Under the pieces are notes generated by a model that was not told where the DNA came from, made no database searches, and saw only the letters and a list, made by a program, of their open reading frames with translations. A DNA stretch of 57,856 bases from Chrysochromulina tobinii. Lineage: Eukaryota. The stretch lies in the NCBI GenBank assembly GCA_001275005.1, contig JWZX01003305.1, forward strand, positions 1 through 57,856, in the 5' to 3' direction. A program made the translations under genes and the position numbers. Shown here one piece after another: positions 25,676 to 55,700 of the stretch. Each line of letters begins with the position of its first letter. The stretch's first letter is position 1.

Positions 25676-27902
25676 ATGGCTGCGGAAGTGGAGACGTTCG
25701 CCTTCCAGGCTGAGATCAACCAGCTCATGTCGCTCATCATCAACACCTTCTACTCCAACAAGGAGATCTTCCTCCGCGAGCTGATCTCCAACTCGTCGGA
25801 CGCTCTCGACAAGGTTCGCCACCAGTCGCTCACCGACAAGTCGGTGCTCGACGCCAACCCGGAGCTGTACATCCGCCTCGTGCCGGACAAGTCGAACAAC
25901 ACGCTCACCATCATCGACTCGGGCATCGGCATGACCAAGGCCGAGATGATCACCAACCTCGGCACGATCGCCCAGTCCGGCACCAAGGCCTTCATGGAGG
26001 CCATGTCGGCGGGCGCCGACATCAACATGATTGGCCAGTTCGGCGTCGGCTTCTACTCGTCGTACCTCGTCTCCGACAAGGTCATCGTCACCTCGAAGCA
26101 CAACGACGACGAGCAGTACATTTGGGAGTCGTCCGCTGGCGGCTCGTTCACCGTGCGCAAGGACGCCGAGGGCGAGTCCCTCGGGCGCGGCACCAAGATC
26201 ACGTGCTACCTCAAGGAGGACCAGCTCGAGTACCTCGAGGAGCGCCGCCTCAAGGACCTCGTCAAGAAGCACTCGGAGTTCATCAACTACCCGATCTCCC
26301 TCTGGACCGAGAAGACGTAAGGAGATTGCCTGCTGATTGCCTGCTGATTGCCTGCCTCATCATGGTGAGCGTCGTCCTCGAAGCATGCAAGCGCTCACCA
26401 CAGCGCCATACTCTCCTCACAGGGTCGACAAGGAGGTGGATGACGACGACGACGACGACGATGAGAAGAAGGGCGACGACGGCGATGAGCCCAAGATTGA
26501 GGAGGTTGAGGAGGAGGAGGAGAAGTCGAAGAAGGACAAGAAGAAGAAGAAGGTGAAGGAGGTCACGCACGAGTGGGACCTGATGAACAAGCAGAAGCCC
26601 ATCTGGACGCGGAAGCCCGAGGAGGTGACCAAGGAGGAGTACGGTGCCTTCTACAAGGCTCTCTCCAACGATTGGGAGGAGCACCTCGCGGTCAAGCACT
26701 TCTCGGTCGAGGGCCAGCTGGAGTTCACCTCGATCCTTTTCGTGCCCAAGCGCGCGCCCTTTGACCTCTTTGAGCCCAAGAAGAAGAACTCGGGCCACAT
26801 CAAGCTGTACGTGCGCCGCGTCTTCATCATGGACAACTGCGAGGACCTGATCCCCGAGTGGCTCACCTTTGTCAAGGGTGTGGTCGACTCGGAGGACTTG
26901 CCGCTGAACATCTCTCGCGAGACGCTGCAGCAGAACAAGATCCTCAAGGTCATCAAGAAGAACATCGTCAAGAAGTGCATTGAGCTTTTCGGCGAGATCC
27001 AGGAGAACGCTGAGGACTTCAAAAAGTTCTATGAGCAGTTTGGCAAGAACGTCAAGCTTGGCATCCACGAGGACAGCGGCAACCGCGCGAAGCTGTCGGA
27101 GCTGCTCATGTACTTCTCGACCAAGAGCGGCGACGAGCAGACCTCCCTCAAGGACTACATCTCGCGCATGCCGGAGTCCCAGAAGGACATTTACTACATT
27201 ACGGGTGAGACGAAGAAATCCGTCGAGACCTCGCCCTTCATCGAGAAGTGCAAGAAGCGCAACTACGAGGTCCTCTTCATGGTGGATCCGATTGATGAGT
27301 ACTGCGTGCAGCAGCTCAAGGAGTACGATGGCAAGAAGCTCGTCTCCGTCACCAAGGAGGGCCTTAAGTTCGAGGAGTCCGAGGAGGACAAGAAGGCGTG
27401 GCAGGAGCTGACGGCCGACTTCGAGCCGCTCGCCAAGCTGATGAAGGAGATCCTTGGCGATAAGGTGGAGAAGGTCGTCATGTCCGAGCGCATGACCGAG
27501 TCGCCGTGCGTGCTCGTCACCGGCGAGTACGGCTGGACCGCCAACATGGAGCGCATCATGCGCGCCCAGGCGCTCCGCGACAACTCGATGTCGTCGTACA
27601 TGGCGTCGAAGAAGACGATGGAGATCAACCCGAAGCACTCGATCATGAAGGAGCTCAAGGCCAAGGCCGCCGCCGACAAGGGCGACAAGACGGTCAAGGA
27701 CCTCGTGCACCTGCTCTTCGAGACCTCGCTCCTCACCTCGGGCTTTTCCCTTGATGAGCCCGCCACCTTCGCCGGCCGCATCCACCGCATGATCAAGCTC
27801 GGCCTCTCGATTGAGGACGACGACGAGGTCGACGACGTCGAGGAGCTGCCGCCTCTCGAGGAGGATGCTGACGAGGGCTCCAAGATGGAGGAGGTCGATT
27901 AA
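25676..27902 (+). CDS. HSP90: Cytosolic heat shock protein 90; exons 25676-26316 and 26423-27902
   Basis: [45 protein letters not shown]-terminal MEEVD; GT-AG intron 26317-26422. Confidence 0.98.
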
Positions 27903-28190
27903 GCGCCGGTCGCCTCCTCGCCTCCCGGGGCGCGCCAAGGCCGCATCCTCGCGCTGTCTTTGCCGCCCCCCTTTGTTGTGGTCACGCGTGGTGCCCGACG
28001 GCCGCCTGGCCTGGGGTCTGGTCTCTTGCGCACGCTTTCGATTAGTTGTGGTGCGTCACACTCATCTCTCGACACTGCCCGCCGCCGCTGTTGGGTTCGC
28101 CGGTCGCGCGTAGTCTCCGGGCGTAAGATGTTTCGTGCAAAAATCATTCCACACCGCAGTCACGGGATACACTGCTGCATTGTACTCATT

Positions 28191-33239: not shown

Positions 33240-36200
33240 TCACTCACGCGTCGCCCTCTGCTTCTCCCGTGGCCGCAGCAAGTATAGCCCGCCAGCTTCC
33301 GCCGCGACTGTGACGCGAGGCGGCTGCGCGTGCGCCGCGCCCTCCCAGATCGCCTGCGCGGAGGCTCCGCCCTTGGACCTCGTCTCGCACGAGCCCCATC
33401 GCATATTGTACACGTAGCCGCGGCAGTGGGGAGCGGCGGCTGGGCACCGATCTTGCACCGGCACATCGGTGCCGGTCTGGCCGCAGCAGGCGGTCGCGGA
33501 GCCGTGGTCCGCCGCGCAGCGCTTGGCGGCGAGCGCGTGCGTCCCCTCCGTGGCGACGAGCTCTGCGCTCATGGGATTGAGTCCAATCGCAGCCCAGTCC
33601 ACGTGTAGCATGCACTCGGCGTCGTTGGGCGCCCACGAGCCCAAGGCGACGAGTGTGGCGTGTGCGTAGCGCACGTAGGCGGTCGCGAGCACGAGAGCGC
33701 AGCCCTCACCGTCGGGGACGACGCGCACCGGCGGCGCGCGCTCCCAATAGCCAATCATGGTGGCTTGCCCGATTTGGAAGCTGTCCCACACCTTCCAAAT
33801 CGGACGTGGATCGGCCGTGCGGAACCGGGTGGTCATGCCGTAAAGCATGCCGCGCCACGGGTGCCCCTCCTTCATCATGTCGCCCATCAGCCCAAATGGG
33901 AGGCCCGACACCTCCGCGAGCCAATACGCGGGCTGCTCTGCGTAGTCGTACCCCTCCCCGAACCAAAGCGAGTCGATGTACGGCATCAGGTGCATGAACT
34001 GCAGTGCGGGCTGCACCATCCCGTACCTGATGAGGGGTGCACTCAGGCATGCCATCAGTCGCAATCAGTCGCAATCAGTCGCAATCAGGCATGTAATCAG
34101 ACGCTCCACATTGCACGACGAGAGATGCACTCAGGGACCATCAGACGGGCCAACAGCCGCCACGACGTACTGCGGATGAAGGTTGTTGCCGCAGTGAAGA
34201 TCAATGAGCGCCCGCCCCGGGCCCTTTTCGGCCTCGAGGACGCGGCGCACGCGGCGCATCGTATGACGCCCAAAGGCGATCCCGTCATAGTAGATGCCGT
34301 CGAGCCCCACGGGCGGGCGCACCTGATGAGGGAGGCGATCAGATGTCATCGGAGGTGATCAGTGGTCATCAGAGGTGATCAGTGGTCATCAGAGGTTATC
34401 AGTGTCGTCGAGCCCCACGGGCAGGCGCACCACACGGCGCAGCCCCTCGACGTAGTAATTCGCCCAACGCGAGATCCCTTGATTACACAGCGCCGAGTCA
34501 AACTCGCCACTCGAGAGGGGGTTCTGCCAACACGGCGCGTAGTGGTCGACCACGTGCTCGTTGACCCACGGGTCGCCGCCGCCGTCGCCGTCGGCGAGCA
34601 CCTCGTCGCCGAGCGACTTGAGCACGAAGAGCTCATCGGCGTGATTGGAGAGCTCGCGCACCTGATTTTGGAGAGGAACTCATCAGAGTCTCATCATGGA
34701 CTCATCATGGGCTCATGATGGACTCATCAGGAACTCATCAGGGACTCGTCAGGAACTCATCATGGACTCATCATGGACTCATCATGGACTCATCATGGAC
34801 TCATCAGAGACTCATCAGAGACTCATCATTGACTCATCAGAGACTCATCAGAGACCCATCAGAGACTCATCAGAGACTCATCAGGAACTCATCATGGACT
34901 GATCATGGACTGATCATGGACTGATCAGGAACTCATCAGAGACTTATCAGGAACTCATCATGGACTCATCATGGACTCATCAGGGACACACACTCAGCGA
35001 GTCACTCAGAGGTCCTCAGCGTGATCCGAGAGCTTGCACAGACCGTGTAGTACGCCTTGACCCGTAGCTGACGCGCATGGGCGCGCGCCACGTACGCCCC
35101 CATCGCAGTGGTCGAGTGCTCCGAGAAAGGATAGTTGATGTACGGATTGAGCGGCCCATCGACCCCCTGATGGATGTTGAGGACGGTCGCGCCGGATTTG
35201 GCAACGTCCTCTGGCTCGACGAGCCGCGTGTCTGGATAGCCCACTTGGTAGTAGCGCTGCTCCCAGTGCGCCGCCGTGTTGAGCGGCTTACACGGCGTGA
35301 GGAGCAGCTCGAAGCGAAACTGCACCGAGCTGCCCGGGAGCATCGTGCGCGCGCCGCCGTGAGCACGCAGAGCGGCCTGCCCATCAATGCGCACGCCGCC
35401 GCGCCCTCGATTGTGCCACCCTTCGGGGAGATCTCCCTCGCTCATCAGGTGCTGCGCCGATTCAAACGCGCTCGTCTCCCCCACCAGCCGCACCCGCACG
35501 CCCGCGCGCACATCGCCGAGCCACGCCATGTAGTTGCCGAGCCCTGCAGCCCAGTGCCACGCGAGGGGCGTGTTGTTGTGCAGCGCTCGCGCCGGCCGGC
35601 CGAACCCCATCAGGTAGCGCGCGATCTCGGCGTCGAGATCGACGAGCAGTTCGCTCTCCGTCAGCGCCACGGGCGCGAGGTTGGTGCGTGGCGCGGAGAG
35701 CGTGAGCGTGATGATCGCCTGCGAGTCGAACCACCACTCGCCGTAGACGTCGAGCGTGAGCACGTCCCACGCCGTGCCGGGGAGCACGCTCGATTGTAGC
35801 TGCGCCGCCCACCGCACGCGCTCGATGGCACTCGGAGGCGCTGCATTGAGCGCTTCGAGCTTCGCCCACGGGGCCGACGAAGAGGCGGCCTCGACGGCAC
35901 TGAGCACGCGCGACGGAGTGGCCACTCGCCACTGTACTAGTCGATCCTCGACGGCGCCCTCTCGGCCAGGCCTCCTCTCAGCGCCGCCAAACTCCCGACT
36001 GTTGTCGTCAGCGACGCTGAGAGGAGGCCTTGAAGCGCCCCTCCGGTCGCCGCCGGGCAGCACACGCACGTTGAAGCTGATCGGGCGATCAAGGAGCGCT
36101 CGGCGGCCGTCTGGGCACTCGATGCAACTCGACCCCCTTGCAAGGCGTCGGGGCGCCGTCGCGGGCGACTCCGCGGCCGCAGGGGCCTCGTGGCACTCGA

Positions 36201-37241
36201 CGCAGGCGTCGGCCGCGCCGCCAGCCGAGCCAACGGTCGGCGGCGGCGGCTGCTCAGTCGGCGTCCGTCCGGCAAAGAGCTGCGTAGGGAGGCCGCCAGC
36301 TCCGATCTCGAGGCCGCCCATGAGCGCCGCGAGCATCAGCGCGGGCGCCGTGTGAGCTGTGCCTGGGATCATGGGGCAGGCCGCAATGAGAGAGGTCATC
36401 AGAGGTCATCAGTGGTCATCAGTAGCACTCACCTAGGATCATGGGGCAGGCCGCAATGAGAGAGGTCATCAGAGGTAATCAGTGATCATCAGTAGCACTC
36501 ACCTAGGATCATGGGGCAGGCCGCAATGAGAGAGGTCATCAGAGGTAATCAGTGGTCATCAGTAGCACTCACCTAGGATCGTCCCAATCCCAGCGTCCAC
36601 CCATGCCGCCACCTTTTCGAGCGTGCCCTCGCCACCCGGCTCGATGCTGACAGCGCTCACGGGCACGAAGGGCTTTGGCAGAGCTGGTGTGCTGCCCGCC
36701 GTCGAGTCGAGCCACCGGAGCCGCGAGAGGCGCCAGCGTCGCGAATCGCCCGCATCCGTCACCGGCGGACCATGCAAGGAGAGACGGAGCCGCGTGAGGA
36801 CCTCGGCTTCGTCAGCCGGGGGAGGGACTGCCGCGGCTCCATCGGGCCCGGCCGCCCCGGCCGCCCCACTTGAGGAAGGCACGGAGGAGGCGAACGCGTC
36901 GGCATCGGCGGCGGTGGAGGAGGTGGAGGGCGACTCGGTGCGCAGCCTGAGCCGCACGCTCAGCTCGAGCGTTGAGCTGAGCGCTTGCGAGGCTGCCGCC
37001 CTCCCCATTGCGGACGATTCGAAGTCGAGAGGGCCGCGGCGCTTGGTCCCGTCGGCCACTTGGCCACTCGGCAGCTGCACGCCGAGCCAGAGCGAGCGCA
37101 CGCAGCCGCGGCGCACGAGCGGTTGCATGCGGATGCGTACGCCGTCAAAGCCCACGCCGTGTGTGTGGAAGCAGTGGAGTCGCACAGCCGAGCTGTTGAG
37201 TGGAAGAGCACTCATGGGCGCCATGATGGGCGCACTCGGAC

Positions 37242-37283
<42 letters not shown>

Positions 37284-39184
37284 GGCTGCGGGTGCTGCTA
37301 GTGCTGGTGCTGCTAATGCTAGTGCCCTCGGGAGCGTCGGCATCGGAAAAATCTCCGGCCAAATCTCCGACCGAATCTCCGGCACCGTGCTCATCCGCAG
37401 CCGTGGGCGCGGCGGCCGCGGTGCCGCCCTGAGCGCCGTTGGTTCCCGGCGCGTACCTGTGGGGAAGTGAGGGCGCCGTGGTGAGCGCTCGCATGCAGAT
37501 TGCCGTTGGCTCCCGGCGCGTACCAGCTCGCAGAGGCGAGTCCGCAGTCGAGCACGCGCACGTCGAGCGTCTCGGGCGCGAGGACGCCCACCTGCCAAAC
37601 GTAAAACTCGCCCAGGCGCGCGTGGGAGTAGAGCCCACTGGTAGGTCCTCGTCTCGCCCATCGTTCAGGAAGCTCGCAGCCCGTACCTGTGGGGAGGAAA
37701 TAGCGCCGTAAGGAGCACATGCATGCAGGGCCCAGGCGCGGATCGAGCGTCTCGCCCTTCGTACGTAGCACGTGAGTGCGCGACTCTGGGAATAGGTGCC
37801 AGCTGTGAATGCGTGGCGTGCGTGAGGGCGGCGCGCGCGTGTCACCACCGGGCACCCGCAGACGCCGTCGCGCGCGCGCCGCCGCTGTGACGGAGGCGGC
37901 CTTGGCGGCGGCCTTGGTGCCCATCACGGCGCTGCTCAGCATGCTGGCGAGCTCAGCGGAGGTCGCGGGTCTCTCCATGTCGCCGAATCGATCTGAGTGC
38001 GTGCGGGCCTGCACATCGAAGACGCGCACCACGGGCAGGCGCGCCGCACTATGTGCATGCGCCCGATACCACGCTTCGTCAAACGTGGGCTGGTACGCCT
38101 CATAGGAGGTGCCGTGCGCGTCGTCCCGGGCGTCGTAGGTCTGCCATTTCGTCTGGTGCGGCAGGTAGTAGAGGTCGTACTCCCCCGCCCCGTGGGTGGG
38201 CTCGAAGAGCACCTCGGCGCTCTCGCGTCCGTCGACCAGTAGGGCGACGTTCTCAACACGGCCCGATTCCTTGACATAGTACCGGTAGCTCCCATCGCCG
38301 TTGCTCCCTTCGTAGCTGTGGCTGCGGGGCGCGCCGTGCTGCGCACTGCCTTTCTCGTGGTACAGGTAGAGCTGCGTCCCTAACGGCCGATGGCGCCGGC
38401 GCCACGGGATGAGCGCTCGCACGGCGCGGGCGCGCGCGTCGGCGGCGGTCACGAGCAGCCGCGCGCGCACGTTACCCAGGCTACGCCTCGACGCGCCGTA
38501 GCCGCCGTACGGCGGCTCGTGCCAGGCGGGGCCGAGGATGGCGTTGCGCGCTTCGCGTCGGATGAGCAGCGCCGCGGGCATGCTCGTGACCGCCGAGGCG
38601 TGTGGGATGGCCGTGCGCCACGCGAGATCCGACGGCTGATGGTCGTGCTCGCTGCAGTGGGAGTAGATCTCGTATTCACCTGGCCCATGCTCTGGTTCGA
38701 AGACGAGGTGCCCGTCCACTGGGCTATGCTCTCGAGTCGTAGCCAAGGCAAGCTCGACGTTGCGCACGCGCATGCCCGTGAGCGCGCTGTAGACGCACGG
38801 TGGCGCCACCTGCGCAGCCTCTGCGCTGTACGGCAGGTCGCTGCCGAGCCAGAAGCGCACATAGATCTGCATCGCCGAGCACAGAGAGGACACTGCGCTC
38901 CGCCGCCGCCGCCTCCGGCCAGAAGGCAACCGAGTGCGAGACGTTGCCTGCCACCATGAATGGCCGGGCGCCGGAGGAGGTGTACTCGGGCACGAGCGCC
39001 TGCTGCGGTTGAACGAGCGGTCGGACCATTGCGTCGCGGGTCCTCCTGCGTCTGATCTATCCAAAAAAGTCAACTCTATGATTCGTCCGTCGCGGCGCGC
39101 GCGGGTCGCCGATTTCGTGACGCACGACTGGAGCAGCTCGGCAAGCAAGCAAGCAAGCAAGTAGCTGAGCAGCTCGGGGGGCAT
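33240..39184 (-). CDS. DUF6067 (putative glycoside hydrolase)-like secreted protein; 7 exons, introns 37687-37764, 37457-37523, 36363-36572, 34662-35043, 34323-34430, 34027-34170
   Basis: Spliced motifs IPWRRR, YDLYYLP, WRLSRLRWLDST, NIHQG..LNPYINYPF, KAYYTVRELSNHA, RWANYYVEGL, GLDGIYYDGI, LIDLHCGN, YIDSLWFGEGYDY, WRGMLYGMTTR; every join keeps the frame. Confidence 0.8.
34677..34983. repeat. About 300-bp intronic array of GACTCATCA(G/T)-type 10/11-nt units
   Basis: Directly visible tandem units inside intron 34662-35043. Confidence 0.9.
36363..36572 (-). repeat. Three head-to-tail copies of a 70-nt complete intron unit (GTGAGT...GATCCYAG)
   Basis: Units 36503-36572, 36433-36502 and 36363-36432 are near-identical. 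Confidence 0.9.
37457..37523 (-). mobile_element. Putative introner-like intron (family A 3' cassette) with a 22-nt duplication of the downstream exon
   Basis: The intron starts GTACGCGCCGGGAGCCAACGGC and the next exon starts GTACGCGCCGGGAACCAACGGC; its 40-nt 3' end is shared with three other introns in the window. Confidence 0.55.
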
Positions 39185-43844: not shown

Positions 43845-43904
43845 GAACGCGTGAAGCGCCTCTTGAGTTAGAGGGGACCCTCGAGGCAATTTCCCCGAAG
43901 CTTC

Positions 43905-44167: not shown

Positions 44168-45328
44168 TCACACTTGACTCGGCACTGCGGGCACACGAGA
44201 CAATCGTTCATACACACCGTTGTGTCGCGCGACTCGCGCGCACACATGTCGTACTACTTGCTCTCCGCCAGCCGCGTCATAATTGAGGAGATCGGCCACC
44301 TTTCTAGCGTAAGCCATCCAAGGCCGCACCTGCTCTTCGCTCCATGTTTTCCAAACGTCGAGATCGGAGCCCAGACTCTGCGGACTGCTCCAGAGGGCCA
44401 CCCGGCTGTAGTTGATGGCATCGCCAAAGGCGAGGCCCTTCCAAGACAGATCAGCAAAGACCGGCACACAGCCGCTGTGCGACGCAAAGAAGATAGCCTC
44501 CAAGTACTTGCGGGTGTTGGGATAGTCGCCGCCTGCAACGACGCAGAACTTGTGGTCCAGGCCCGCTCGATGGTACTCTGCCGGCTCGAGTCTCGACGGA
44601 AGAACGGCTCTTCCAGCCGCGATGAAATCGTGTTCGAAGTTCGGCTCCCGCATCAATGCCCTGCACTTGTGCTCAAAAGGTATGGGTTTCAGGTTGCACA
44701 TCGACGTGTCCTCAGGGCCTAAGAGCTGTGTGCAGTGCTCCTTCCACTTGCCATTACGTACGCATTCGAGCCCTACGCCGAGTGTCCAGACATTGTGCGA
44801 GACGACCGTCACATCGGAGCGGTTGTAGAGCTGCTTCCAGATTCGCCAGCGCGAGGGTGACACGTAGAGCTGCGGGACGTTGCCAACGAAGAGGGCTGTG
44901 CGTCTCGTCGCCCAAGGAGCTGCGGGCATGAGACGGCCCAGCCAGCTCGTGAAATGTTCCAAATTGAACGGCACCAAAATCTGCTGATTCGATGCCACCA
45001 TCTCTGAAAAGTAAAAGCCCGACGAGGGGATCTTCGCGACATTATTCCCTCGGAGCCGGGATTCTATAGAAAAGTAGGAGAAGACGACAGGAAGGCGTCT
45101 AGAGTTATTCACCAGCGTCGACATCTCGCTGATGGCGGCGTACCGCTTATTATTGCGGAAGGTGAGATCAGCGCCAAAGAGGATGAAATCGGCCTCGGCT
45201 AGCGGCGTCGAGTTGATATGCCGAGCAATGGGAGCAAACACGTCGTACTGTGGGTCGTAACTGTTGCGATCCCGACCCTCGGGCAGCGTCTGGTGGCGTG
45301 GCCTGTAGATATGCACCTTACACGCCAT
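44168..45328 (-). CDS. Exostosin-family (GT47) glycosyltransferase; start uncertain
   Basis: KVHIY; AEADFILF; RRTALFVGN; HKFCVVAGGDYPNTRKYLEAI...GCVPVF; AFGDAINYSRVAL. Confidence 0.75.
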   Translation of the reverse strand: MACKVHIYRPRHQTLPEGRDRNSYDPQYDVFAPIARHINSTPLAEADFILFGADLTFRNNKRYAAISEMSTLVNNSRRLPVVFSYFSIESRLRGNNVAKIPSSGFYFSEMVASNQQILVPFNLEHFTSWLGRLMPAAPWATRRTALFVGNVPQLYVSPSRWRIWKQLYNRSDVTVVSHNVWTLGVGLECVRNGKWKEHCTQLLGPEDTSMCNLKPIPFEHKCRALMREPNFEHDFIAAGRAVLPSRLEPAEYHRAGLDHKFCVVAGGDYPNTRKYLEAIFFASHSGCVPVFADLSWKGLAFGDAINYSRVALWSSPQSLGSDLDVWKTWSEEQVRPWMAYARKVADLLNYDAAGGEQVVRHVCARVARHNGVYERLSRVPAVPSQV

Positions 45329-45615
45329 GACGAGAGAAGTTGACCTTTTTGTAGTTCGAGCGCGTCGTCCCAAGCGCTCCCCATTCACCCGCAAGGACCC
45401 ACACTTTCGCATCTTCCAACATTGAGCGAACATGCTTGCGATTCCAAATTGAATCCGGGGTGTCTTGATTGGTGTGCGCATTGTTGGTGTGTGGGTGTGT
45501 GGCACAGGGTGTGATCCTGTGTGTGCACTGTGCAGCATCTGCTGTGTCCTGGGAATGTTGTGTCTGGCCCTCGGAGCCGGACCTTGCATGCGCCGTGATC
45601 TCGGCGTGAACATGC

Positions 45616-46338
45616 TTAAATGGAACACGCGCCATCCCGCGCGGTACGCGGGGCTGAACAGCTGTCATACACTTCATCGCCGCCAAACGCTCCATCGTCC
45701 TCTTCGGCCACGCCACCACCCCCAATTCCACCGACCCCAATGCCGCCAATGCTGGCGAGGTGAACGACCGCTTCCTGCTGCGCCACTGCGGCAAAGGGAC
45801 TGGCACGCTTGCAGAGGTAGGAAATCGCCGCCAGCGTTAGCGTCATCGCTGGGAGCGCAATCATGGCGCTCATTAGCCCGATTGGCTCATCCGGAACCTG
45901 GTTCCGGGGATCCGGATAGAGTCCCTCTCGAATCAATCTCGACCCTTTCCAATCAGTTACGGTCTCCTCAAATTCATCTGCCGCCGACACATCCCGGGCT
46001 CGCTCAAGGTTATGCAAATGTGGATGACGAGGCGACCTCGGCGGAGGCGATGGAGATGCACGAGATTGAGATGCACTGGATTGCGGTGCCGCACCACTGC
46101 TCAAATTGTATCTGTTCCTCAGTGACTTTACGCTAGCCTCCACGCACGACTTCCTCTTTTTCTGGTCGAAGATGTTGAACACTTTAATGTCACAGCGCCC
46201 GGTGGTTGCATAGTGCTCGACACCGGCATCATTGGCCTCAGTCAGACGTTCGTCGACATTCTTGGTAGACGAAGGCGTCGGCGTGGAAAGTCTTCGACCG
46301 TTCGAGCACATAAGGAAGCAGAGCATCGCGAAATGCAT
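45616..46338 (-). CDS. Hypothetical protein with an N-terminal leader and one transmembrane segment
   Basis: Open frame; MHFAMLCFLMC leader; GLMSAMIALPAMTLTLAAISYLC hydrophobic stretch. Confidence 0.4.
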   Translation of the reverse strand: MHFAMLCFLMCSNGRRLSTPTPSSTKNVDERLTEANDAGVEHYATTGRCDIKVFNIFDQKKRKSCVEASVKSLRNRYNLSSGAAPQSSASQSRASPSPPPRSPRHPHLHNLERARDVSAADEFEETVTDWKGSRLIREGLYPDPRNQVPDEPIGLMSAMIALPAMTLTLAAISYLCKRASPFAAVAQQEAVVHLASIGGIGVGGIGGGGVAEEDDGAFGGDEVYDSCSAPRTARDGACSI

Positions 46339-46460
46339 TTTTCGAGCGCGAGCGGATTCGAAAAAATTTATAAAGAAATTGAGCACAGAACATCGATCGC
46401 GGGTTATAACCTGCTACACACTCTTCGCTCATTTCGGTAATCTCGTGGTGTGAGAAACCA

Positions 46461-46958
46461 ATGCAGTCCCTCCCGATCTTGCTGCTCCTCTTGCCAGCTG
46501 GCACTGCGCTATTTGTCTCGCCGCGCCGTGCACATCTTCAGCAGGCCGCCGCCGCCGCTGCCGCCGCCGCTGCAGCGTTTCCGCTCGTAGCTCCAGCCGT
46601 TGCCGACGAGGATCCTCTTGTAACTCGCCTCCGAGATGCACAATCGCGACTGGAGTCAGCGCAATTCGCACTGAATGAGGGTAACATTGACCAAGTGCGG
46701 CAGGCAGTCAAGGCCGCCGTCACACCGCTCACAATGAAGGGTTACCTCGGTTCATCCGTCAAGTCGCGGGCGCAAGATTCGGGCTCCACTGAGCTTCTCG
46801 AGGCCCGTACCACGCTCCTGAAAAACTTGGGCATCGTGGACAAGTGGTGCTACGATCGGCAAACGAGCTTCGGTCAGTCGTCGAGCGATTCCACTATACC
46901 CACCAGTGCGCTGCGTGAGAGCGTCGTAGCGATCGATAAGGTGATCGAGCTCTTGTGA
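46461..46958 (+). CDS. Probable thylakoid-lumen protein (PsbQ-like helical bundle)
   Basis: Signal peptide, then RR plus an Ala-rich hydrophobic stretch and APAVA cleavage site, followed by an amphipathic helical domain. Confidence 0.6.
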   Translation: MQSLPILLLLLPAGTALFVSPRRAHLQQAAAAAAAAAAAFPLVAPAVADEDPLVTRLRDAQSRLESAQFALNEGNIDQVRQAVKAAVTPLTMKGYLGSSVKSRAQDSGSTELLEARTTLLKNLGIVDKWCYDRQTSFGQSSSDSTIPTSALRESVVAIDKVIELL

Positions 46959-47088
46959 TTGTTTGTCTCTGTATATCCGTCGGTACCATGGTACCGGGCC
47001 GCAGCCGACGGACCCATGCCAAAAAAAACCCACAGTAAAGCGCCTTCGGCAGGTTTTGCAGGCCGACTTCTACATGTAGGCGAAACGG

Positions 47089-48165
47089 TTACGCGCGCTC
47101 GACGGAGCTGGCCGCTGGCGCGCTAGCCGGCCTAGCTGCCCCCCGCGTCCACGGCGGCACCTGCGGGTCTTTACCGGCTGGGTCGCTCGCGAATTCTCCG
47201 CGCATGTACCTCTCGACGAGCCCACGTATGCGATAGCTGCCGATGAGGACTTCGAGCGGCCCGGCGTCGAACTGACCACCAGGTGGCGCGATCGTGCTGC
47301 CGCTACCTCCCGCCATCGCCGCCGCCGCCTCGGCCTCAATGCACAAGCGCGCGAACTCTGCCGGGGAGATACGGTTGCTGTACTCGGGATGGTCGGGATC
47401 ATCCACGCACGCCGCGCAGGCCATCGTGGCTCCTATCTCCTCCGGGCTGAAGCCGAGCGCGATCATCATCGTGCCGAGATCGTCCACTTGAATCAGGCCC
47501 ATCCGGTCGCGGTCGACGGCCTTGAAGCACTCGTGCAGCTCAGCTTTTCTCGCCTTGGTGACCGTGCGGTGTGACGGGAGCCTCGCACGCACTTCAAGGA
47601 AGCGATCCGTCTGGAAGTCGAGCTCGTATTGCTGGTACTGGCGGCGCTGGCGTGGAGAGAGCCTATGGTCGGGCCGGTGGACGGTCAGATTTGGCGGCGG
47701 CGGCGGCGCCCGCGCGGCGGCCCTGGCGCGGTTTGCACGGCTGGGAGAGCTGGTGGCGCAAACTCGCCGGCCGTGGATATCATATGTTGGTGGCGCGGCG
47801 GCGGGCGCCGTGCCTGAATGCAAGAGCATGGGAGCCTTTCCGGTGAATCGCGTGAGGTCGGGCGCTGCTGATGGCCGCGCGTATATAGGCAGGTACACTC
47901 TGTCGGGCAATGCTGACGGCCGCGCGGATTGAGGTCGGTTCGAAGCCAACCGCGGTGAGGAGAGCGGAACTCGGCCTCGCGCCGACTGTGGCCTAATGTC
48001 CTGGAACGGTGCTGTCGGTGCTTCTGGGTAGGGTAGGTGCTGCACGATGCGACGGCCGGCCTTGAAGAGATCGGACGCCGCGAGCGGCGGCTCAACCATC
48101 ACATTGCCATACCACACTCCCGGCTGCTGTGCCCGTGTGCTGGATTCTGCTGGTTTGGCTGGCAT
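47089..48165 (-). CDS. Protein with a Pro-rich N-terminus and centrin-like EF-hand C-terminus
   Basis: KAELHECFKAVDRDRMGLIQVDDLGTMMIALGF; ISPAEFARLC. Confidence 0.7.
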   Translation of the reverse strand: MPAKPAESSTRAQQPGVWYGNVMVEPPLAASDLFKAGRRIVQHLPYPEAPTAPFQDIRPQSARGRVPLSSPRLASNRPQSARPSALPDRVYLPIYARPSAAPDLTRFTGKAPMLLHSGTAPAAAPPTYDIHGRRVCATSSPSRANRARAAARAPPPPPNLTVHRPDHRLSPRQRRQYQQYELDFQTDRFLEVRARLPSHRTVTKARKAELHECFKAVDRDRMGLIQVDDLGTMMIALGFSPEEIGATMACAACVDDPDHPEYSNRISPAEFARLCIEAEAAAAMAGGSGSTIAPPGGQFDAGPLEVLIGSYRIRGLVERYMRGEFASDPAGKDPQVPPWTRGAARPASAPAASSVERA

Positions 48166-48627
48166 TAGGGCACCAGCCGCACCGTGCTCATTTAGGTCGA
48201 GTATCCATGTTTTGAAGGAACGAAGTGTGAAGCAAGCACGCAAGCACGCTTGCTTGAAGTGTGACTGTTATTTGCAACTGTTAATAGCATCTTATCACTT
48301 TCAGGGTGTAGTTAGTCAGTTTTATATGTCGCTGTCCCCCCGCGCTCACCACATGCAACCATTATGCAACCATTATGCAACCGAGTGTGTAGTTCACACG
48401 TAGACGTAAAATTGAGCCGCACATCGAGGCTCACGTAACGCCCTCGACGGCCGGGTACATCCGTCGGGATGCGGACATGCGGTGGACGAGGATGACTCTG
48501 TGGCACAGAGGGACTTGTGCCCACACGGAACAGGCTTGACCCGCTGAGATGGGCGAGATGCGCGCGCGCCACCTGGGCGCAAGCACCATTCCCTGCTCCT
48601 CCTGCTGCTACTGCTGTGCGCCGCGCG

Positions 48628-49583
48628 TCAGTCGATGCAGACGCCGGGCCCCGCCCTCCTGCGCATCGCTTTTCGCACGCGCGTATCGGTGCCCAACTCG
48701 GCGTCGCTGCCGCTCTCGGCCGTGCTCTCGGCGCGCGAAGTGAGGCGTGCGAGCCGCTCGTTCTCGAGCGTCAGCTGCTCATTCTGCTGCGCAAGCGCTG
48801 AGATGGCCGCCATCAGCTTGCTCGGCGACATGAGGCACTCTGCCATGTGTCGCTCGAGTGGCGGTCCGCCGATGCATGCATGGCCGCACCCAAATGGGCA
48901 CATGACGGGTGAAAGCGGGAGCGCCGGGCAGCGCTGCGCATGCACGGCGAGCTCGCGGCGCGGCAACTCGGCGCCGCAGCCCTCGTTTGGGCACGTCACG
49001 CTCACGCACTGGCACTGCAAAGCCAAATGGCTGAGCAGCTCTCCGCGCCTGCCCACCCAAGCGCAGCCCGACTTGGCCAGCTGGCAGCGCGTGTCCACGT
49101 TGGAGACGAGGCGCTCGGCGAGCCTATCGGGCTGCAGCACTGAGGCCTCCACTGGTGCTCGACACTCGGGGCACTCGGGCTTGAGCGGCAGCCAGGTTTG
49201 CAAGCAGCCCTCGCAGAAGATGTGCCTGCGCGAGAGAGGGAGAGAGAGAGAGCGATTGAGAGAGAGAGAAGCAGCGGCGGGTGAGCAATGAGGCGGCGAC
49301 GGCACGCCATCAATCAGCAGCATGGCGTGAGCAACCCGCACTCTGGCTGGCCGGCTGCGCGCGCTTCTGGCCGGGTGCGCAGCAGCAGTAGTGCATGGGT
49401 CGCAAAGCTGTACCCGCATGCCGTACGGGTGGGCCGCACGAAGAGGCCAGTGCAGATGGCGCAGCACAGGTTCTCGTCGGCAGGTCGGCACAGCAGCTCC
49501 TCCGAGAATCGGCTCGATGCGCCTGCAATCGCCTTCTCAGGCGTGCGCAGGTCCTGCCTTGGAGCGCATAGAGTCTGATCCAT
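48628..49583 (-). CDS. RING + TRAF-type zinc-finger E3 ubiquitin ligase; exons 49583-49414 and 49225-48628
   Basis: CAICTGLFVRPTRTACG|HIFCEGCLQTWL..CPECR (C3HC4); GCAWVG..LLSHL; CPNEGC...H..RC; CPFGC. Confidence 0.9.
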
Positions 49584-49771
49584 GGAGCGCTTTTGCCTTT
49601 CGCCCTTTTCAGGCAACTTGCCCGCCAAAAACGGCGCAGGAATGGGCCTGCTCGCGTGTCGAGCAGATTTTTTGTGCAGCACCGGCGGCTCTGCGTTCTC
49701 CGGCAGGCTGAGCTTCCTCGGCGCTGCCCTCGATTACGGGCCGATACACAGGTCCCCGCTCTGTTGGAGAA

Positions 49772-51394
49772 ATGGAGATTTCTTCTAATTCGAGAGCAAA
49801 CCACCTCGTGGCCCTCTCCTTCCTCGACTCGCTCGAGCCTCCGCTCGCTACCAATTCTCGCCAAGCCCTCCTTTCCGCACTCGAGAGCTCGGGCCAAGGC
49901 CTCTCATGCCTCTCGCGCTTGGACGGGGACGCGCTCAAGGAGATTGGCGTGGTGTCCCCCATGGAGCGCGCGAGTCTGCTCGCGGCGGCTGCGGATGGTG
50001 GGGTGATGGCGCCGCCGCCCAGGATGGACCCGCCAGGCCCGGTCGTGGTCGAAGTGAAGTTCGGCTTCATAGAGCTCTCGGCGATCGACACGATCAACCA
50101 GAGCTTCCGCTGCCGCTTCTTCCTCGACCTCACCTGGGAGGATCCGCGGCTCATCGGCGCCTCGTCGGTGCCCGACGGGACGTGGTTCCCGAAGGGCGTC
50201 TACATCATCAACGCGCATGGCGCGCTCGACATCGCAGCGTACTCCAAGCCGATCCTCGTCGACAGTGCGACGGGCCGCGTGCTGTGGGCGCAGGACATCC
50301 AGGGAGCCATCACCAACCAGATGAGCCTCGCGGCATTTCCTTTCGACACGGACGTGCTCGAGGTCTACGTGCACCAGGCCGAGGAGGCCAGCCGCGACGA
50401 GTACGTGCTCAGGCCCTACGGCGGGGGGTGGAACGGCTACCGCACGCGCAGCTCGGAAGAGACGCTCGAGCTCGAGTCCCGGAGCACGCAGTGCTTCTTC
50501 GACGTGTTCACGTGGGTGGACGAGTGGAGCGTTGGCGGCTTCTCTATCGAGGCGTACGAGACCGTGGGCGGCAACGGCGTCGAGTACTCGGAATGCCACC
50601 TCTATCTGCACGTGGCCCGGCGCTGGACGTACTACGCGTGGAAGATCGTGCTGCCGCTGTGCATCTGCACGGCCTTCTGCCTCACCGCGTTCCTCTATGA
50701 GGCGGAGGATCTCGCCAACCGCAACGGCATCTCGGTCACCATGTTCCTCGCCACCTCGGCGCTGCTCTTCGTCGTGGCCGCGCTGCTGCCCAAGACCTCC
50801 TACCTGACCGCCATCGACCGCTTCGTGGTGCAGACTCTCGTGATCCAGTTCGCCATCGGCGTGTGGAGCTGGCTCATGTTCGCCGTCGTGCGCGTGCGCC
50901 TCGACGAGGGCGCAAGGGACCGGGCGGACCTGGTCGCCTTCCTTGTGCTCGCCGGCGCGTACGTGCTCTGCGTCTGCGCCTTCTTCTGGAGGCCGTTGCT
51001 CGCGGGGAACGTGACGGACCACGGCCGCCACCGTCTCCTCGCGCGGCAAGGGGCGCTGCTCGAGAGGCCCACGCCGCCACCGCCTGGCCCGAGCGGGCAC
51101 CATCTCGACTCGGGCAGGATGGGTGACGAGGACGAGACGCGGATGACGCGCTTCCACCGCTTCGAGATGGGGCGCAATGTCTGGCCTCGAAAGGTCCCGG
51201 GCGAGCTCCCCGTGAACATGCTCCAACCGCACTGGAGCCGCAAGGAACCAGGGAGCCTGAAGGTTACTTCTGTGGAGCGGCTCTCACCCGACGAGTTCAC
51301 GAAGAAGGGCGGTTATGCTGGGGTGAAGGTAGCCACAACGAGCAAGGCATTAGAGCGGGCGAGACCTCGGGAGGCTGACCTTCATATGTGCTGA
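49772..51394 (+). CDS. Cys-less pentameric ligand-gated ion channel with an N-terminal SAM-like domain
   Basis: IDTINQSFRCRFFLDLTWEDPRL; WFP; SLAAFPFDTDVL (Pro-loop without the Cys pair); YYAWKIVLP; LPKTSYLTAIDRF; four TM segments. Confidence 0.85.
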   Translation: MEISSNSRANHLVALSFLDSLEPPLATNSRQALLSALESSGQGLSCLSRLDGDALKEIGVVSPMERASLLAAAADGGVMAPPPRMDPPGPVVVEVKFGFIELSAIDTINQSFRCRFFLDLTWEDPRLIGASSVPDGTWFPKGVYIINAHGALDIAAYSKPILVDSATGRVLWAQDIQGAITNQMSLAAFPFDTDVLEVYVHQAEEASRDEYVLRPYGGGWNGYRTRSSEETLELESRSTQCFFDVFTWVDEWSVGGFSIEAYETVGGNGVEYSECHLYLHVARRWTYYAWKIVLPLCICTAFCLTAFLYEAEDLANRNGISVTMFLATSALLFVVAALLPKTSYLTAIDRFVVQTLVIQFAIGVWSWLMFAVVRVRLDEGARDRADLVAFLVLAGAYVLCVCAFFWRPLLAGNVTDHGRHRLLARQGALLERPTPPPPGPSGHHLDSGRMGDEDETRMTRFHRFEMGRNVWPRKVPGELPVNMLQPHWSRKEPGSLKVTSVERLSPDEFTKKGGYAGVKVATTSKALERARPREADLHMC

Positions 51395-51560
51395 AGCCGG
51401 TGACGCTCATGAAGTTGACGTGTCGGGCCTCTCGGCATCCAGACCCGTTGCACGTGTATACTGATCCAGGCAAGATCGGGCTTGTCGCGCGCACGGAGCG
51501 GCGGCGGGATGAAGTGCACAAAGAGAGCCGACTCGGGTACGACCACAGGCTGCTCCGCGG
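51363..51560 (-). pseudogene. Frameshifted 198-bp copy of 28599-28795 (fragment of the 28191-29153 gene)
   Basis: Near-identical sequence with a 1-nt insertion (GTGTATACTGATCC versus GTGTGCACGATCC). Confidence 0.85.
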
Positions 51561-51716
51561 CCACTCCCGCAGCCAGCCGAGCTTCAAGCCGAGCTAGAGC
51601 GTAGAGGGACAACCTTAACTGTCATACCGGATACGGGAAATGTGACATTAGGCTTTAGCGTAGGGCTATAGAAGAGATGACTTTAGATAGATAGTTTGTG
51701 GGTTTGATCCTACTAC

Positions 51717-52313
51717 TCAGACAAAGGTGCTGTCTGGCCTCCGTTCGAAATCGCGCGCATCTGGTCGCGGTAGGCTACCAAATGGGGTGGTTTGGATGTC
51801 GGCAAGCCGGCGCTGCCAAGCGCTCGTGAGGCCCAGCTCTCGAGCGCCAGTGCGTATCAAGCCGAGGTACCGTTTGGAAGGTGGGAGCTCAACAGGCGAT
51901 GCGAGCAAGCCAGAGCCCAGCGTCCACGCCTTTACGCTCCCGCCGTTGTACAGCTGCACAGTGACCTCTCGGACCTGGTAGCCCAGCGGCCCACCAAACG
52001 GAACGCCCTCGCTCGCAAGCAGTCGAACCCAGTCAGCCAGGGTCAGCTGAAATACGCCACCGTGGCATTCGTCGTCCTTGTTCGATGAAGGCATGATGGA
52101 TGCAAACGCCGGCTCCAGCGGCGAGAAGCCGATCATGTTGAATGCAAGGCGCTAACCTTTCACAAAGCCGGGCGCCATGGACAGCGGACGGAGCCCGCGG
52201 CGATTCTCTCGCACAGTCGCGCACATGTTTGACCCAAACGCGAAGTAGGTGATCCGCAGCCCGTCGGGCTGCGATGGCCGCACAAGGGCGAGCGCGCCTA
52301 CAAGCGTGAGCAT
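51717..52313 (-). pseudogene. Gamma-glutamylcyclotransferase-like gene with an in-frame TAG at codon 54
   Basis: Leader MLTLVGALAL; YFAFGSNM; FVKG-TAG-RLAFN; ECHGGVFQL; SEG...YQV; PSKRYLGLIRTGARELGL. Confidence 0.7.
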
Positions 52314-52715
52314 CCGTATCGGAAAGTACCCGACGAGGTCCTAGGAAAGATGCGAAAAAGTAACTTCAAATCTCGCCGAAATGGTCAGCTCTGAAACCGC
52401 GAGGATACCTCCCCCCCCCCAAACACAGGCGCGCGCGCGCCCGATTGCATATGTATGGTATACGCGAAAGTCAATTCAAATTTAAATGAGAGAAACTGCA
52501 AACTCTCGACTCCAGCGAGCACCGTCGTAAGAGGTAAGTCGACTTGACATTGACTTGACACCAAAGACACCGGACACTTTTCTATTTATTGGAAAAGCGC
52601 TCCGGCTGCGCATCGAAAACCCCACTGAATTCCGAGGATATGCCGTACCAAAAGCTGTGTTTCGTGTGCAGTGAGTCAGCCCGGTCCGGTCAAGCAGGGC
52701 TCTCGTCTTCGCGGG

Positions 52716-55700
52716 TCAATCCTCGTCGGTCGCCCCGTCGTCCTGAGCGTGCGGCTGAGCGGCCGCGGCGTCGGTCGCGCTTGTAACGGCGCTCTTGGCG
52801 CTCCTGGCTCGCGCGTACGTCGCCTCAGCGGCCTGGCAGATGGCCTCGAGCTCGGCGGCCGCGGCCGCGTCGTTCTCCAGCTCGTACGCATGCATGGCCG
52901 CAGCCTCCCTCGCCTCGGCCTCGGCTTCAAACGCCTTCTGGACCTCGGCCGCGGCGGCAGCCTCGGCCGCCTTCGCCGCCTCCACTGCTGCCGCCTCCGC
53001 CTCCGCCCCCGCCTCCGCCTCCGCCTCGGCCGCATCCTCAAGGGCTATACGAGGCCAGGTGGGGGGCGTCACGGCTGCGTCGCCGCCTGTGGAGTTCACA
53101 TGCATCGTCGCCGCGCCGCCAGCAGAGTTCACAGCAGAGTTCACAGCAGAGCGGCTTTCCTCATCGTCCGGCGTGATGCTCAAGACGGCGCTCGGAGTGC
53201 CCGTGACGGTCGCGTGTGAATCCTCGACGCGACGGCAGCGCTTGTGCAAGTAGCCGAAGACGTCGGCATAGTGGCCGGCCTGCCCGGGGTGCGGCGACGG
53301 GTAGTCGCGCGGCTTGAACTTGCACAGCATGCTGGCGAGCGTGCCCACAGAGCAGTCGAGCGCACGCAGCCGCCTTGTAACCACCTCCAAGCCAGCCGCG
53401 AGCCGCTCATCGCCAAAGGTGAGGTAGTGGACGCACACGCGCCCGGCGAGCGATGCCGCCATCCACTGGATCATCGCTTTGAGTTGCAGGTCGCCGCCGA
53501 AGGCGCCGCAGCCCCAATTGCCCGTGACGATCGGGGGCAGTGGCGCCGCGGCGACGGCGCCAATGGGTTCCCCGTCGAGAGCGCCGTCACGAGCGCCGAG
53601 GAAGCCGACGTACGCCTTGTTGAGCTCCCGCTCGATGGCGCCGGATGAGAATTGCCGCATCACCTGGGAGCGCTCGTACTGCGTCGCGTCGATGGCCACC
53701 AGGTGGGGTCCCGGTGCGGCCGGATCGTCTTCATACGGTCCGGCGTACCTGTGGGGAGAGGGACGGGGCGCCGTGAGGAGCACTTGCATGCGGATGGATC
53801 GTCCCCGGACGGGTCGGCGTACTCAAAGGTGCGCGCGTAGCCGCGGTAGCTTGAGAACCGCTCGACGCCCTCGAGCAGGAGCGCCTCGTGGTCCTCGAGA
53901 CTCTCGGCGAACGCTCGCGACACGATGAGCTCGGGGCTCAGCAGGAATCGGATCTCCTCTTGCACGCACCTGAGTAGGGAGGCAACCATATGCACTCAGA
54001 GGCACACTCAGGGGCAATCATGGGCACTCATGGGCACTCAGGGGCACTCAGGGGCACTCAGGGGCACTCAGGGGCACACAGCGGTACTCAGGCTCCTCTG
54101 CTCACCCGTTGCGCAGCACGCCGCCGCCAATCGAGCGGTTGGCAAAGTCGAGTTGCAGATGCGACCGGTCGGCATCCTCGATCGTGCCGTCGGCGCGCGC
54201 GTGCACGGGGCAGAGCGGCACGTGCACCGCGCCGCGCCAGAAGCTCTCGAGCTGCGTCTCGGAAGTGTCGAGCACCAGCCGCTCGAAGCTGATCAACCGA
54301 GGTGAGGGCGCAGCGGAGGACGAGGCGGCAGCGGCAGCGGGAGCAGCCGGCGCGGCGACCGCCCTGATCCACTCCATCACCTCCGACCACGAGACGACCG
54401 ACACAGTGCCCCTCATGTAAGCGACTGCCGATTGAGCCTCGTGCCACTCGGCGGCACGCATTGGACCCTCGTCGTCGTCGTCGTCGGGCGGCTCGGGCTC
54501 ACACAGCAGGTGCGTGCAGCCGCTCATCTCGACGCGACCCACGGTGAGCGCGCCGTGCAGCCGCAGCTCGTTGGCCATGTCCTCGTGCTCCTCTGCGGAG
54601 AAGCCGGCCAGGGCGAACACACTCCCCGCCAGCGCATAGGCCGTCTCCACGGACGGCGGCGTCGTTGGCGGCGGTGGCGGAGGCGTCCACGGCCGCCCTG
54701 CGGCGGCGCTCGATTCGGCGCGCGCGGCCAGCCGCTCAAAGTAGCCGAGCAGGCAGCGCAGCTTCTGCGGCTGCGTGGCATTCATCTTCGAGTGCGGCGC
54801 ACGCGGTGGCTCGAGGGGACCGAAGAGGGGCCCGCAGTCAAAATAAGGCAAGTCGGGCCCCCGCCCACCGGCCCCGTGGGCGCGCCGCCCCCCCTGGTCG
54901 GCGCGGAAGGGCATCGAGGAGAAGAAGGCATGCGCGAGCAGCGCGGCGCATTGGTCGGGGTGCAGGCTCACTCGCTCGGCACGTCCTTTCAGAAGGAGTG
55001 GCAGCGGGCGCGGGCAGAGGCGCGGCAGTGCAAGGGCGAGGCGGCACATGTGCGGCAAAGTGGCGTCAAAGAAGCGGCGGCGCTCGTCCGCGCTACATTC
55101 ATGCTCGAGGAACTCATGCAGTGCCTCGAACGTCCAACGGCCACCGACGGCCTTTTGGATCGCACGCAGGGCTCCGAGCAGCTTGAGGGTGCTCGAGGGG
55201 GGTGGCGAGAGGCGTGCGCACAGGACGTGCCAGAGCGGCACGCCGGCGCCCTGCCTGCTCAGGCATCGCGGCGAGCACGGCAGGCGCACGTGCTCGCAAT
55301 CCCACGCGTCCACGTACCATGGCGGCAGCTCAGCCTCGGGCGGCAGCGGCGGCAGCAGGACCGACTGTGCTCCGCCCGCCGCCGCGCTCGCCGCCGTCGC
55401 GTCCGGCTCAGCCGTGGGGAAGTCGGGCGGCTCCGCAACCTCCACATCGGTATCTCCGTCTTCGACGACCAGCCGAGGCGCTGGCACCGGTAGCACAGGC
55501 GGCACCGGCAGCTCCGGCACCGGAATGGTTGCGGCCGCCACCACGGGCACTGCTGGAAGGTGCTCGACTCCAAGGACCGTCTGTAGCGCGGCGTACGTCA
55601 TGACCGTCAGCCCGCTCGCGCGTGCGATATCTTGCGCGGCAGACGCCGCCGCCAGAAGCTGTGCATCGTCGGGCGCCTCGTCGTCCACGAGTAGATGAGT

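What the first reader, a model, noticed from the sequence alone, without database searches (positions are those of the whole stretch)
26383..53791. Family A: shared 40-43-nt intron 3' cassette in three unrelated genes
Seen on the sense strand, each ending exactly at the acceptor: HSP90 26383-26422 GCATGCAAGCGCTCACCACAGCGCCATACTCTCCTCACAG; 37457-37496 GCATGCGAGCGCTCACCACGGCGCCCTCACTTCCCCACAG; 37687-37726 GCATGCATGTGCTCCTTACGGCGCTATTTCCTCCCCACAG; PARG 53749-53791 GCATGCAAGTGCTCCTCACGGCGCCCCGTCCCTCTCCCCACAG. In three of the four, the following exon starts GTACG and the intron also starts GTACG. Inference: a tiny mobile acceptor cassette (branch-point-like CTCAC, pyrimidine tract, CAG) inserts next to a GTAC(G) target, and the duplicated target supplies the donor. 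This similarity exceeds generic splice consensus.
Basis: partly seen in the sequence, partly recalled or inferred. Interest (0 to 1): 0.8.

Follow-up and report, generated by a model that had tools for sequence, protein, structure and literature searches.

The report
Half-introns that duplicate their landing site
In a freshwater alga, a shared 40-base intron end sits in many unrelated genes, usually behind a 10-50-base copy of the gene's own next exon that supplies the other splice site, which points to a likely copy-and-paste way of making new introns that two published surveys missed in this species.

Summary
The intron's 5' half is a long, variable copy of the downstream exon (88 of 120 acceptor-type copies, control 3 of 240; 10-49 nt, median 29) that begins at GT/GC and provides the donor. 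GTACG is not a target (12 of 120). Mirror copies carry the donor and take the acceptor from a duplication ending in AG. Splicing is supported by RNA contigs (HSP90) and gap-free homologs (PARG, GH123). Two close relatives lack the youngest insertion but keep the older one. Junction microhomology, local parent-daughter pairs and one daughter carrying parental exon bases favour microhomology-guided template switching from an existing intron copy; Replitron-like and retro-copy routes remain open, and no mobilising enzyme was found. A 2025 introner survey scored this genome zero; the 2022 pipeline requires similarity at both intron ends, which these lack. Verdict: new variant of introner-type intron gain.

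The parts
26317..26422 (+). HSP90 intron, 106 nt, GT-AG; composite: 48-nt 11-mer-repeat segment (26317-26364), 18-nt segment starting GT (26365-26382), cassette (26383-26422). No long target duplication.
   Evidence: RNA contigs of runs X17 and X6 leave the window after 26317 and continue with the letters of 26424 onward (table 7); Pfam HSP90 model continuous across it; 14 of 66 match to exon.
26383..26422 (+). Cassette copy 1: 24-nt core with predicted branch point, pyrimidine tract, CAG
37457..37523 (-). GH123-like gene intron, 67 nt: 22-nt copy of next exon (37523-37502, 21 of 22 identical to 37456-37435) giving the GT donor, 5-nt filler, cassette 37496-37457. Young insertion.
   Evidence: removal needed for an open frame; absent from close relatives P0122 and P0123 and distant P0124-6, present in P0121
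37687..37764 (-). GH123-like gene intron, 78 nt: diverged 38-nt copy of next exon (18 of 38) plus cassette 37726-37687. Older insertion.
   Evidence: in-frame length, so splicing rests on homologs: P0124-6 lack exactly these 26 residues, and in P0123 the insert is not a multiple of three
53749..53822 (-). PARG intron, 74 nt: 31-nt copy of next exon (53822-53792, 23 of 31 identical to 53748-53718) plus cassette 53791-53749
   Evidence: removal restores frame and aligns without gap to P0013, P0015, P0017; the public model P0004 uses a GT 12 nt inside the duplication and gains 4 residues
25676..27902 (+). Host gene HSP90
   Evidence: Pfam PF00183; start codon frame checked
33240..39029 (-). Host gene, GH123_N-like glycoside hydrolase (approximate span), with further repeat-core introns
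   Evidence: Pfam PF19543 on four ORFs; homolog alignment
52716..55879 (-). Host gene PARG with BRCT (approximate span)
   Evidence: Pfam PF05028, PF20811; P0004
34323..34430 (-). Sister architecture, different core: 108-nt intron whose first 26-28 nt copy the next exon, followed by 10-mer repeats and an acceptor
   Evidence: splicing predicted only
1422..1497 (+). Sister architecture: 76-nt 10-mer-repeat intron inside a roughly 24-27-nt duplication that spans AG|GT
   Evidence: splicing predicted only

Best explanation
These are members of a multi-copy spliceosomal intron family in Chrysochromulina tobinii whose shared part is only half an intron, the other half being a 10-50-nt duplicate of the host exon, and new copies likely arise when a DNA end at the target switches by short microhomology onto an existing copy (DNA or unspliced RNA), copies the core, and switches back upstream. 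Shown: the family, the duplication, sense orientation, frame restoration, gain at new positions. Inferred steps: (1) the target 3' end anneals to a donor copy near the core through 2-6 matching bases; (2) synthesis runs through core, pyrimidine tract and AG; (3) the strand returns to the target at a site some tens of bases back, which duplicates that stretch; (4) in coding sequence only events that put GT/GC at the start of the duplicate, or AG at its end in the mirror form, are spliced out exactly and survive; (5) each new copy can seed the next, handing on bits of its own flank, so the family erodes to a 24-nt core with the predicted branch point. What starts the event, and whether an element-specific enzyme recognises the core, is not known.
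For: Flanking direct repeats: 83 of 122 isolated copies score 32 or more versus 0.33% of 1815 cross-locus pairs. 88 of 120 acceptor-type copies have the duplicate anchored at the exon start, control 3 of 240; donor GT 75, GC 8 of 88. Sense strand in 36 of 38 scored; frame continuous after splicing in 16 of 17, unspliced 2 of 17. Duplication length is continuous, 10-49 nt, as is its position: starting at GT, ending at AG (9 of 11 mirror copies, 13-27 nt), or spanning AG|GT (L019, L083, L105, L114). Microhomology: 10 of 15 non-tandem copies whose duplicate runs flush to the core share 2 or more bases with it, against 0.14 expected (p 5e-6). L094 to L107: a 59-nt identical segment with 6-nt microhomology at both ends that runs 7 nt past the parent's acceptor into its exon, which an excised intron could not template. 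L023 is a whole-intron copy carrying the exon-derived 5' part of the L024 site 1.2 kb away in the same contig. Copies on one contig share 5' flank more often: 7 of 75 versus 159 of 13768 pairs. Age order fits: the 21/22 duplicate is absent from 92%-identical relatives, the 18/38 one is present. Other window introns with unrelated cores have the same long duplicates.
Against: No enzyme or autonomous partner was seen; only 300-nt flanks and one 58-kb window were available (no transposase or RT family among 54 window ORFs). Generic repair would rarely pick one 40-nt donor, and a 24-nt core kept far beyond a branch point hints at specific recognition (inference). Pairs judged related do not share exon starts more than unrelated pairs (39 versus 5107 pairs, p 0.99), so microhomology at the return junction is not shown in general. 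Carry-over past the acceptor rests on one parent-daughter pair. The near-pair test uses non-independent pairs and compares same-genome with mixed-strain pairs. The search pattern required the whole core, so core conservation is partly built in. The HSP90 copy has no long duplicate. An empty site could also be precise loss by recombination between the repeats. RNA evidence covers one of four window introns.
Confidence: 0.5

Rival explanations
1. Tiny non-autonomous HUH (Replitron- or Helitron-like) element: one end is strand-transferred precisely to the target, the other ends fuzzily near a hairpin with bases from the parent's flank, and a variable duplication results.
For: Replitron-1/N1 insert after RG, carry a fuzzy end from the parental flank, make variable-length duplications that include RG and have a terminal hairpin; one Replitron locus is reported in C. 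tobinii (PMC10288648). All 11 mirror copies follow AG, and 9 of 11 have that geometry.
Against: AG is also required for splicing. The commoner acceptor type has the opposite polarity with the same core and no RG target; some copies are fuzzy at both ends. No short direct terminal repeats are visible. The hairpin is weak (z -2.1 to +0.1) and broken about as often as kept among 44 looser copies. Replitron insertions avoid coding sequence in Chlamydomonas.
Confidence: 0.2
2. Target-primed reverse transcription of excised, debranched intron RNA by a LINE or Penelope-like RT: exact AG or GT ends are the natural RNA ends, the other end is truncated, and staggered nicks give the duplication.
For: The fixed ends coincide with splice sites; variable long duplications and short junction homology are typical of non-LTR insertion (passages; own knowledge); abundant intron RNA would explain donor bias; L023 is an exact whole intron.
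Against: L107 holds 7 nt of parental exon beyond the acceptor. Exact ends are also what selection in coding sequence would leave. No A-rich tail; no RT found in the window.
Confidence: 0.18
3. One reading: a cassette with a GTAC(G) target and a short fixed duplication, like DNA-transposon introners.
For: 3 of 4 window copies start GTACG at both places; next exon starts GT in 93 of 120.
Against: GTACG in 12 of 120, GTAC in 20 of 120; duplication 10-49 nt and variable; no inverted termini; mirror forms exist.
Confidence: 0.04
4. Not mobile: a species-wide extended branch-point or splicing enhancer present in old introns, with the repeats arising by ordinary tandem duplication.
For: The core sits where a branch point should (its A mostly 23-30 nt from the acceptor) and stays conserved in the copy with the most diverged duplicate.
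Against: Homologs lack introns at these positions, close relatives lack the young one; shared locus-derived flanks link specific copies; other window introns lack the core.
Confidence: 0.03

Closest known systems
Introners (Gozashti et al. 2022 PMC9860276; 2025 PMC12130899), including marine Chrysochromulina MAG families and Polarella/Symbiodinium classes (bioRxiv 10.1101/2020.10.14.339549)
   Same: Multi-copy intron families in unrelated genes; one splice site carried, the other taken from the target duplication; precise removal.
   Different: Reported duplications are 3-9 bp and fixed per family (4 bp for the Chrysochromulina example), with similarity to both intron ends. Here 10-49 nt, variable, forming half the intron, with mirror forms of one core. 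C. tobinii was scored 0 families in the 2025 dataset.
Replitron-1 / Replitron-N1 of Chlamydomonas reinhardtii (PMC10288648)
   Same: Copy-and-paste, variable-length duplication, fuzzy end derived from the parent's flank.
   Different: Replitrons are 0.9-3.6 kb, have short direct terminal repeats, a fixed left end after RG, and are not introns; here 40-55 nt, both polarities, no partner found.
Intron gain by tandem genomic duplication of AGGT-containing exon sequence (reviewed in PMC3443670)
   Same: Duplicated exon sequence supplies splice sites and the coding sequence is restored.
   Different: Here a foreign, family-shared core sits between the two copies and usually brings one splice site and the predicted branch point.
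Intron gain at staggered double-strand breaks in Daphnia pulex (PMC4202315)
   Same: New introns flanked by direct repeats of adjacent exon.
   Different: Daphnia repeats are 4-12 bp and fillers are mostly of unknown source; here repeats are longer and the filler is a piece of another intron of the same family.
Fungal introner-like elements and sister stwintrons (PMC8469720)
   Same: Small proliferating introns with no known transposase; repair-linked models proposed.
   Different: Those insert seamlessly with no flanking duplication and have long inverted repeats.

Membership tests
Introner (survey definition) | Similar introns in unrelated genes, many copies | tested here: met
   3 window genes; 183 matches in 144 loci, 171 after merging twins
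Introner (survey definition) | Similarity reaches both splice boundaries | tested here: not met
   5' half is locus-specific duplicate in 88 of 120; criterion read
Introner (survey definition) | Gained at new positions (empty sites in relatives) | tested here: met
   Protein-level only: P0122, P0123 lack the 67-nt insert; P0124-6, P0013, P0015, P0017 lack others
Introner (survey definition) | Removed precisely by splicing | tested here: met
   RNA contigs for HSP90; homologs for PARG and GH123; frame test 16 of 17
DNA-transposon (MITE-type) introner | Fixed 3-9-bp duplication and terminal inverted repeats | tested here: not met
   Duplication 10-49 nt, continuous; no inverted termini visible in the copies
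Replitron | Fixed left end inserted after RG | tested here: inconclusive
   11 of 11 mirror copies follow AG, but splicing requires it; acceptor-type copies do not fit
Replitron | Short direct terminal repeats | tested here: not met
   None visible in the ends printed (read by eye)
Replitron | Fuzzy end from parental flank and variable duplication | tested here: met
Replitron | Autonomous partner encoding Rep HUH with shared termini | not testable with these tools
   No genome held; none among 54 window ORFs
SINE / non-LTR retro-copy | A-rich or simple-repeat 3' tail | tested here: not met
   Tail is a 10-40-nt pyrimidine tract ending in YAG; the same last 8 nt in 76 of 120
SINE / non-LTR retro-copy | Head derived from a known small RNA | tested here: not met
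   No Rfam match in the window at gathering thresholds; weak test for so short an element
SINE / non-LTR retro-copy | Partner LINE or Penelope RT sharing the 3' end | not testable with these tools
   No genome held
Tandem-duplication intron gain (AGGT model) | Intron consists only of duplicated exon sequence | tested here: not met
   A shared foreign core lies between the copies; a minority take both sites from the duplicate

The most novel reading that the evidence does not exclude
Spliceosomal introns that replicate as fragments without a transposon of their own: any copy can template the next by microhomology switching, a long target duplication completes the missing half, and the same process with several cores has built a large share of this alga's introns (about 4,100 copies of this core by extrapolation, 95% range 1,100-10,500, against roughly 17,000 introns). 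This would be a genome-scale intron-gain route that joins tandem duplication and intron transposition and is invisible to current introner searches.
Probability: 0.4. Interest if true: 0.85.

Novelty: new variant of a known kind. Interest (0 to 1): 0.72.

Why it matters
How new introns arise is a long-standing open question, and about 72% of introner families have no assigned mechanism. Here every insertion keeps a dated footprint (the duplicate decays while the exon is conserved) and often a tag of its parent, so parentage, age and junction chemistry can be read for thousands of events in a cultured alga with a public genome. It also shows a blind spot: searches needing similarity at both intron ends miss such families, so intron gain in haptophytes may be undercounted. 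In practice the duplicate offers decoy donors that mislead gene models (PARG model P0004 gains 4 residues).

Tried and rejected
No whole genome or locus-backed records were held, so copy number is an extrapolation from 4 copies in 57,856 nt; summed contig depth over the cassette is some hundreds of times background in two DNA runs but is not a copy number. RNA runs X17 and X6 did not cover the GH123 gene, and no reads were obtained for 37300-54300. GTAC(G) target: rejected. Conserved hairpin as a mobility signal: not supported; folding z -2.1 to +0.1, about 22 stem-keeping and 19 stem-breaking changes among 44 looser copies (my tally), and the pairing-compatible variants were built into the pattern. 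Shared exon starts among related copies: no signal. Carry-over of parental exon in coding copies: the 11 positive offsets are mostly small indels or nested copies. Viral carrier: 1 match in viral contigs, in the last 60 nt of a phage-like contig, taken as a probable chimeric end. Prokaryotes: 1 match inside a bacterial coding sequence without tract or AG, taken as chance. Rfam: nothing. The coding model had one training piece out of frame; one search repeats it corrected (36 of 38 sense both times). Rows dropped: 49 of 171 copies with short flanks or a second core; 8 of 171; 50 of 88 with nearby intron motifs or short flanks; 3 tandem copies of 18. A few orthologous twins stayed unmerged (L035/L090, L071/L119). 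Nine literature searches found no description of this architecture; the library lacks most subscription papers, the 2022 SI appendix PDF could not be read, its spreadsheet was cut when stored, and files 13-14 of the 2025 paper were not searched; these could bear on the novelty claim.
Full report
Observation. The four cassettes are at the stated coordinates, one on + and three on -, each ending at an acceptor on the coding strand of HSP90, a GH123_N-like gene (two) and PARG. A profile from any three finds the fourth at 22.4-29.2 bits against at most 16.0 elsewhere. A PARG homolog search returned an identical NCBI protein of Chrysochromulina tobinii on a contig of the window's length (P0004); the best-holding runs are mostly lake, freshwater or mixed-culture metagenomes, and GC is 63.6% against 63.4% published.

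The introns are real. RNA contigs from two studies leave the window after 26317 and continue at 26424. Removing 53822-53749 restores the PARG frame and aligns without gaps to P0013, P0015 and P0017, whereas the public model uses a GT 12 nt inside the intron and gains four residues. In the GH123 gene the 67-nt intron must go for an open frame; the 78-nt one is in frame, but three distant homologs lack exactly those 26 residues and one close relative has it at a length that shifts frame. No RNA reads were obtained for these three.

In three copies the intron's 5' part is a copy of the next exon: 21 of the first 22 nt, 23 of 31, and 18 of 38. The HSP90 intron has no such match and looks like two nested pieces. 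Of 122 isolated copies, 83 are flanked by a direct repeat scoring 32 or more, against 0.33% of 1815 cross-locus pairs. Of 163 copies with flanks, 120 have core, pyrimidine tract and YAG; in 88 of these the repeat starts exactly at the exon start (control 3 of 240), at GT in 75 and GC in 8, is 10-49 nt long (median 29), and gives introns of median 78.5 nt. The 71 ungapped duplicates are 95% identical and 25 are perfect (trimming inflates this), which suggests many young events. GTACG starts only 12 of 120 exons. A window-trained coding model puts 36 of 38 scorable copies on the sense strand, and the frame is continuous after splicing in 16 of 17 confident cases against 2 of 17 unspliced.

One core, several geometries. 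Eleven copies carry a shared 30-nt donor-side segment plus the core and follow AG; in 9 the acceptor comes from a 13-27-nt duplicate ending in AG. Others take both sites from a duplicate spanning AG|GT, form tandem arrays (L050, L126, L133), or are whole-intron copies: L023 begins with the exon-derived part of the L024 site 1.2 kb away and sits in frame with no long duplicate of its own. Window introns with 10-11-mer repeat cores show the same long duplicates, so the process is not tied to this core.

Gain, and its order. P0122 (92% identical, from a 25-kb contig, reading through other introns, so genomic) and P0123 keep the old 78-nt insert and lack the young 67-nt one; P0121 (99%) has both. 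This is protein-level evidence, and loss between the repeats cannot be excluded, but the decay of the duplicates fits recent gain. Extrapolating 4 copies in 57,856 nt to 59 Mb gives about 4,100 (1,100-10,500) in a genome of 16,777 genes with about one intron each.

Mechanism. Junctions show microhomology: 10 of 15 flush copies share two or more bases with the core start (expected 0.14). L107 repeats 59 nt of L094 exactly, with 6-nt homology at both ends and 7 nt of L094's exon beyond the acceptor, so that template was DNA or unspliced RNA. Same-contig copies share 5' flanks more often (7 of 75 versus 159 of 13768; pairs not independent). I therefore favour out-and-back template switching onto an existing copy, filtered by selection for exact splicing (0.5). 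Against it: no general sharing of exon starts among related copies, a single crossing example, and a conserved 24-nt core that suggests specific recognition. A Replitron-like route (0.2) matches the mirror copies well but not the opposite polarity of the commoner type; retro-copying of excised introns (0.18) matches the exact ends but not L107. The predicted hairpin is weak. No mobilising gene was found in 54 window ORFs, and the genome could not be searched. That the family is a copied, spliced insertion with a long target duplication I hold at about 0.9.

Comparison with print. Gozashti 2022 (PMC9860276; passages; spreadsheet rows): duplications of 3-9 bp, marine Chrysochromulina families with 4 bp, a pipeline needing similarity near both boundaries, and C. 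tobinii found only in the list of genomes. Gozashti 2025 (PMC12130899; passages; supplement rows): C. tobinii 0 families; one Emiliania family noted with 10-bp terminal direct repeats, which may be related. Roy 2020 preprint (parts 1-2 of 4): fixed 3-8-nt duplications. Craig 2023 (PMC10288648; parts 1-5 of 7) and PMC9977147 (passages): Replitron signature. PMC3443670, PMC4202315, PMC8469720, PMC4580454: passages only. Nine searches showed no account of half-introns completed by long duplications.

Verdict. It works like an introner that co-opts one splice site, fails the both-ends and fixed-short-duplication criteria, and is best filed as a new variant. Interest 0.72.

Noticed in passing
window 36363-36572 (-): Three head-to-tail 70-nt introns with no exon between them in the GH123 gene; close relative P0122 reads through without them.
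   Followed up: partly
window 1422-1497 (+), 2120-2296 (+), 24253-24342 (-), 34323-34430 (-), about 34665-35003 (-), 53971-54105 (-): Introns with 10-11-nt tandem-repeat cores flanked by duplicates of about 11-40 nt of host exon: a second set of cores using the same architecture.
   Followed up: partly
window 53810 (-): Public PARG model P0004 uses a decoy GT inside the duplicate and adds four residues absent from homologs.
   Followed up: yes
window about 25286-25319 (+): Short intergenic stretch upstream of HSP90 with very high summed contig depth in both DNA runs: another high-copy small repeat, not identified.
   Followed up: no
L094: Two successive insertions at the same acceptor of a myosin-like gene; the second has a perfect 47-nt duplicate and nearly the same cassette as the first, suggesting local re-copying.
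   Followed up: partly
L050, L065, L122, L126, L130, L135: Tandem arrays of core plus 15-35 nt spacer without acceptor between units; L122 and L126 share a spacer at unrelated sites.
   Followed up: no
L145 3001-3060: Cassette in the last 60 nt of a phage-like primase/helicase contig; probably an assembly chimera.
   Followed up: partly
window 4419-7259 (+): ORF combining ankyrin repeats with nucleoporin FG repeats and a Nup98 GLEBS motif.
   Followed up: no
PMC12130899 supplement file 8, Emiliania fam24: Five-copy family annotated with 10-bp terminal direct repeats, co-opting the 5' site; may be the same phenomenon in another haptophyte.
   Followed up: no
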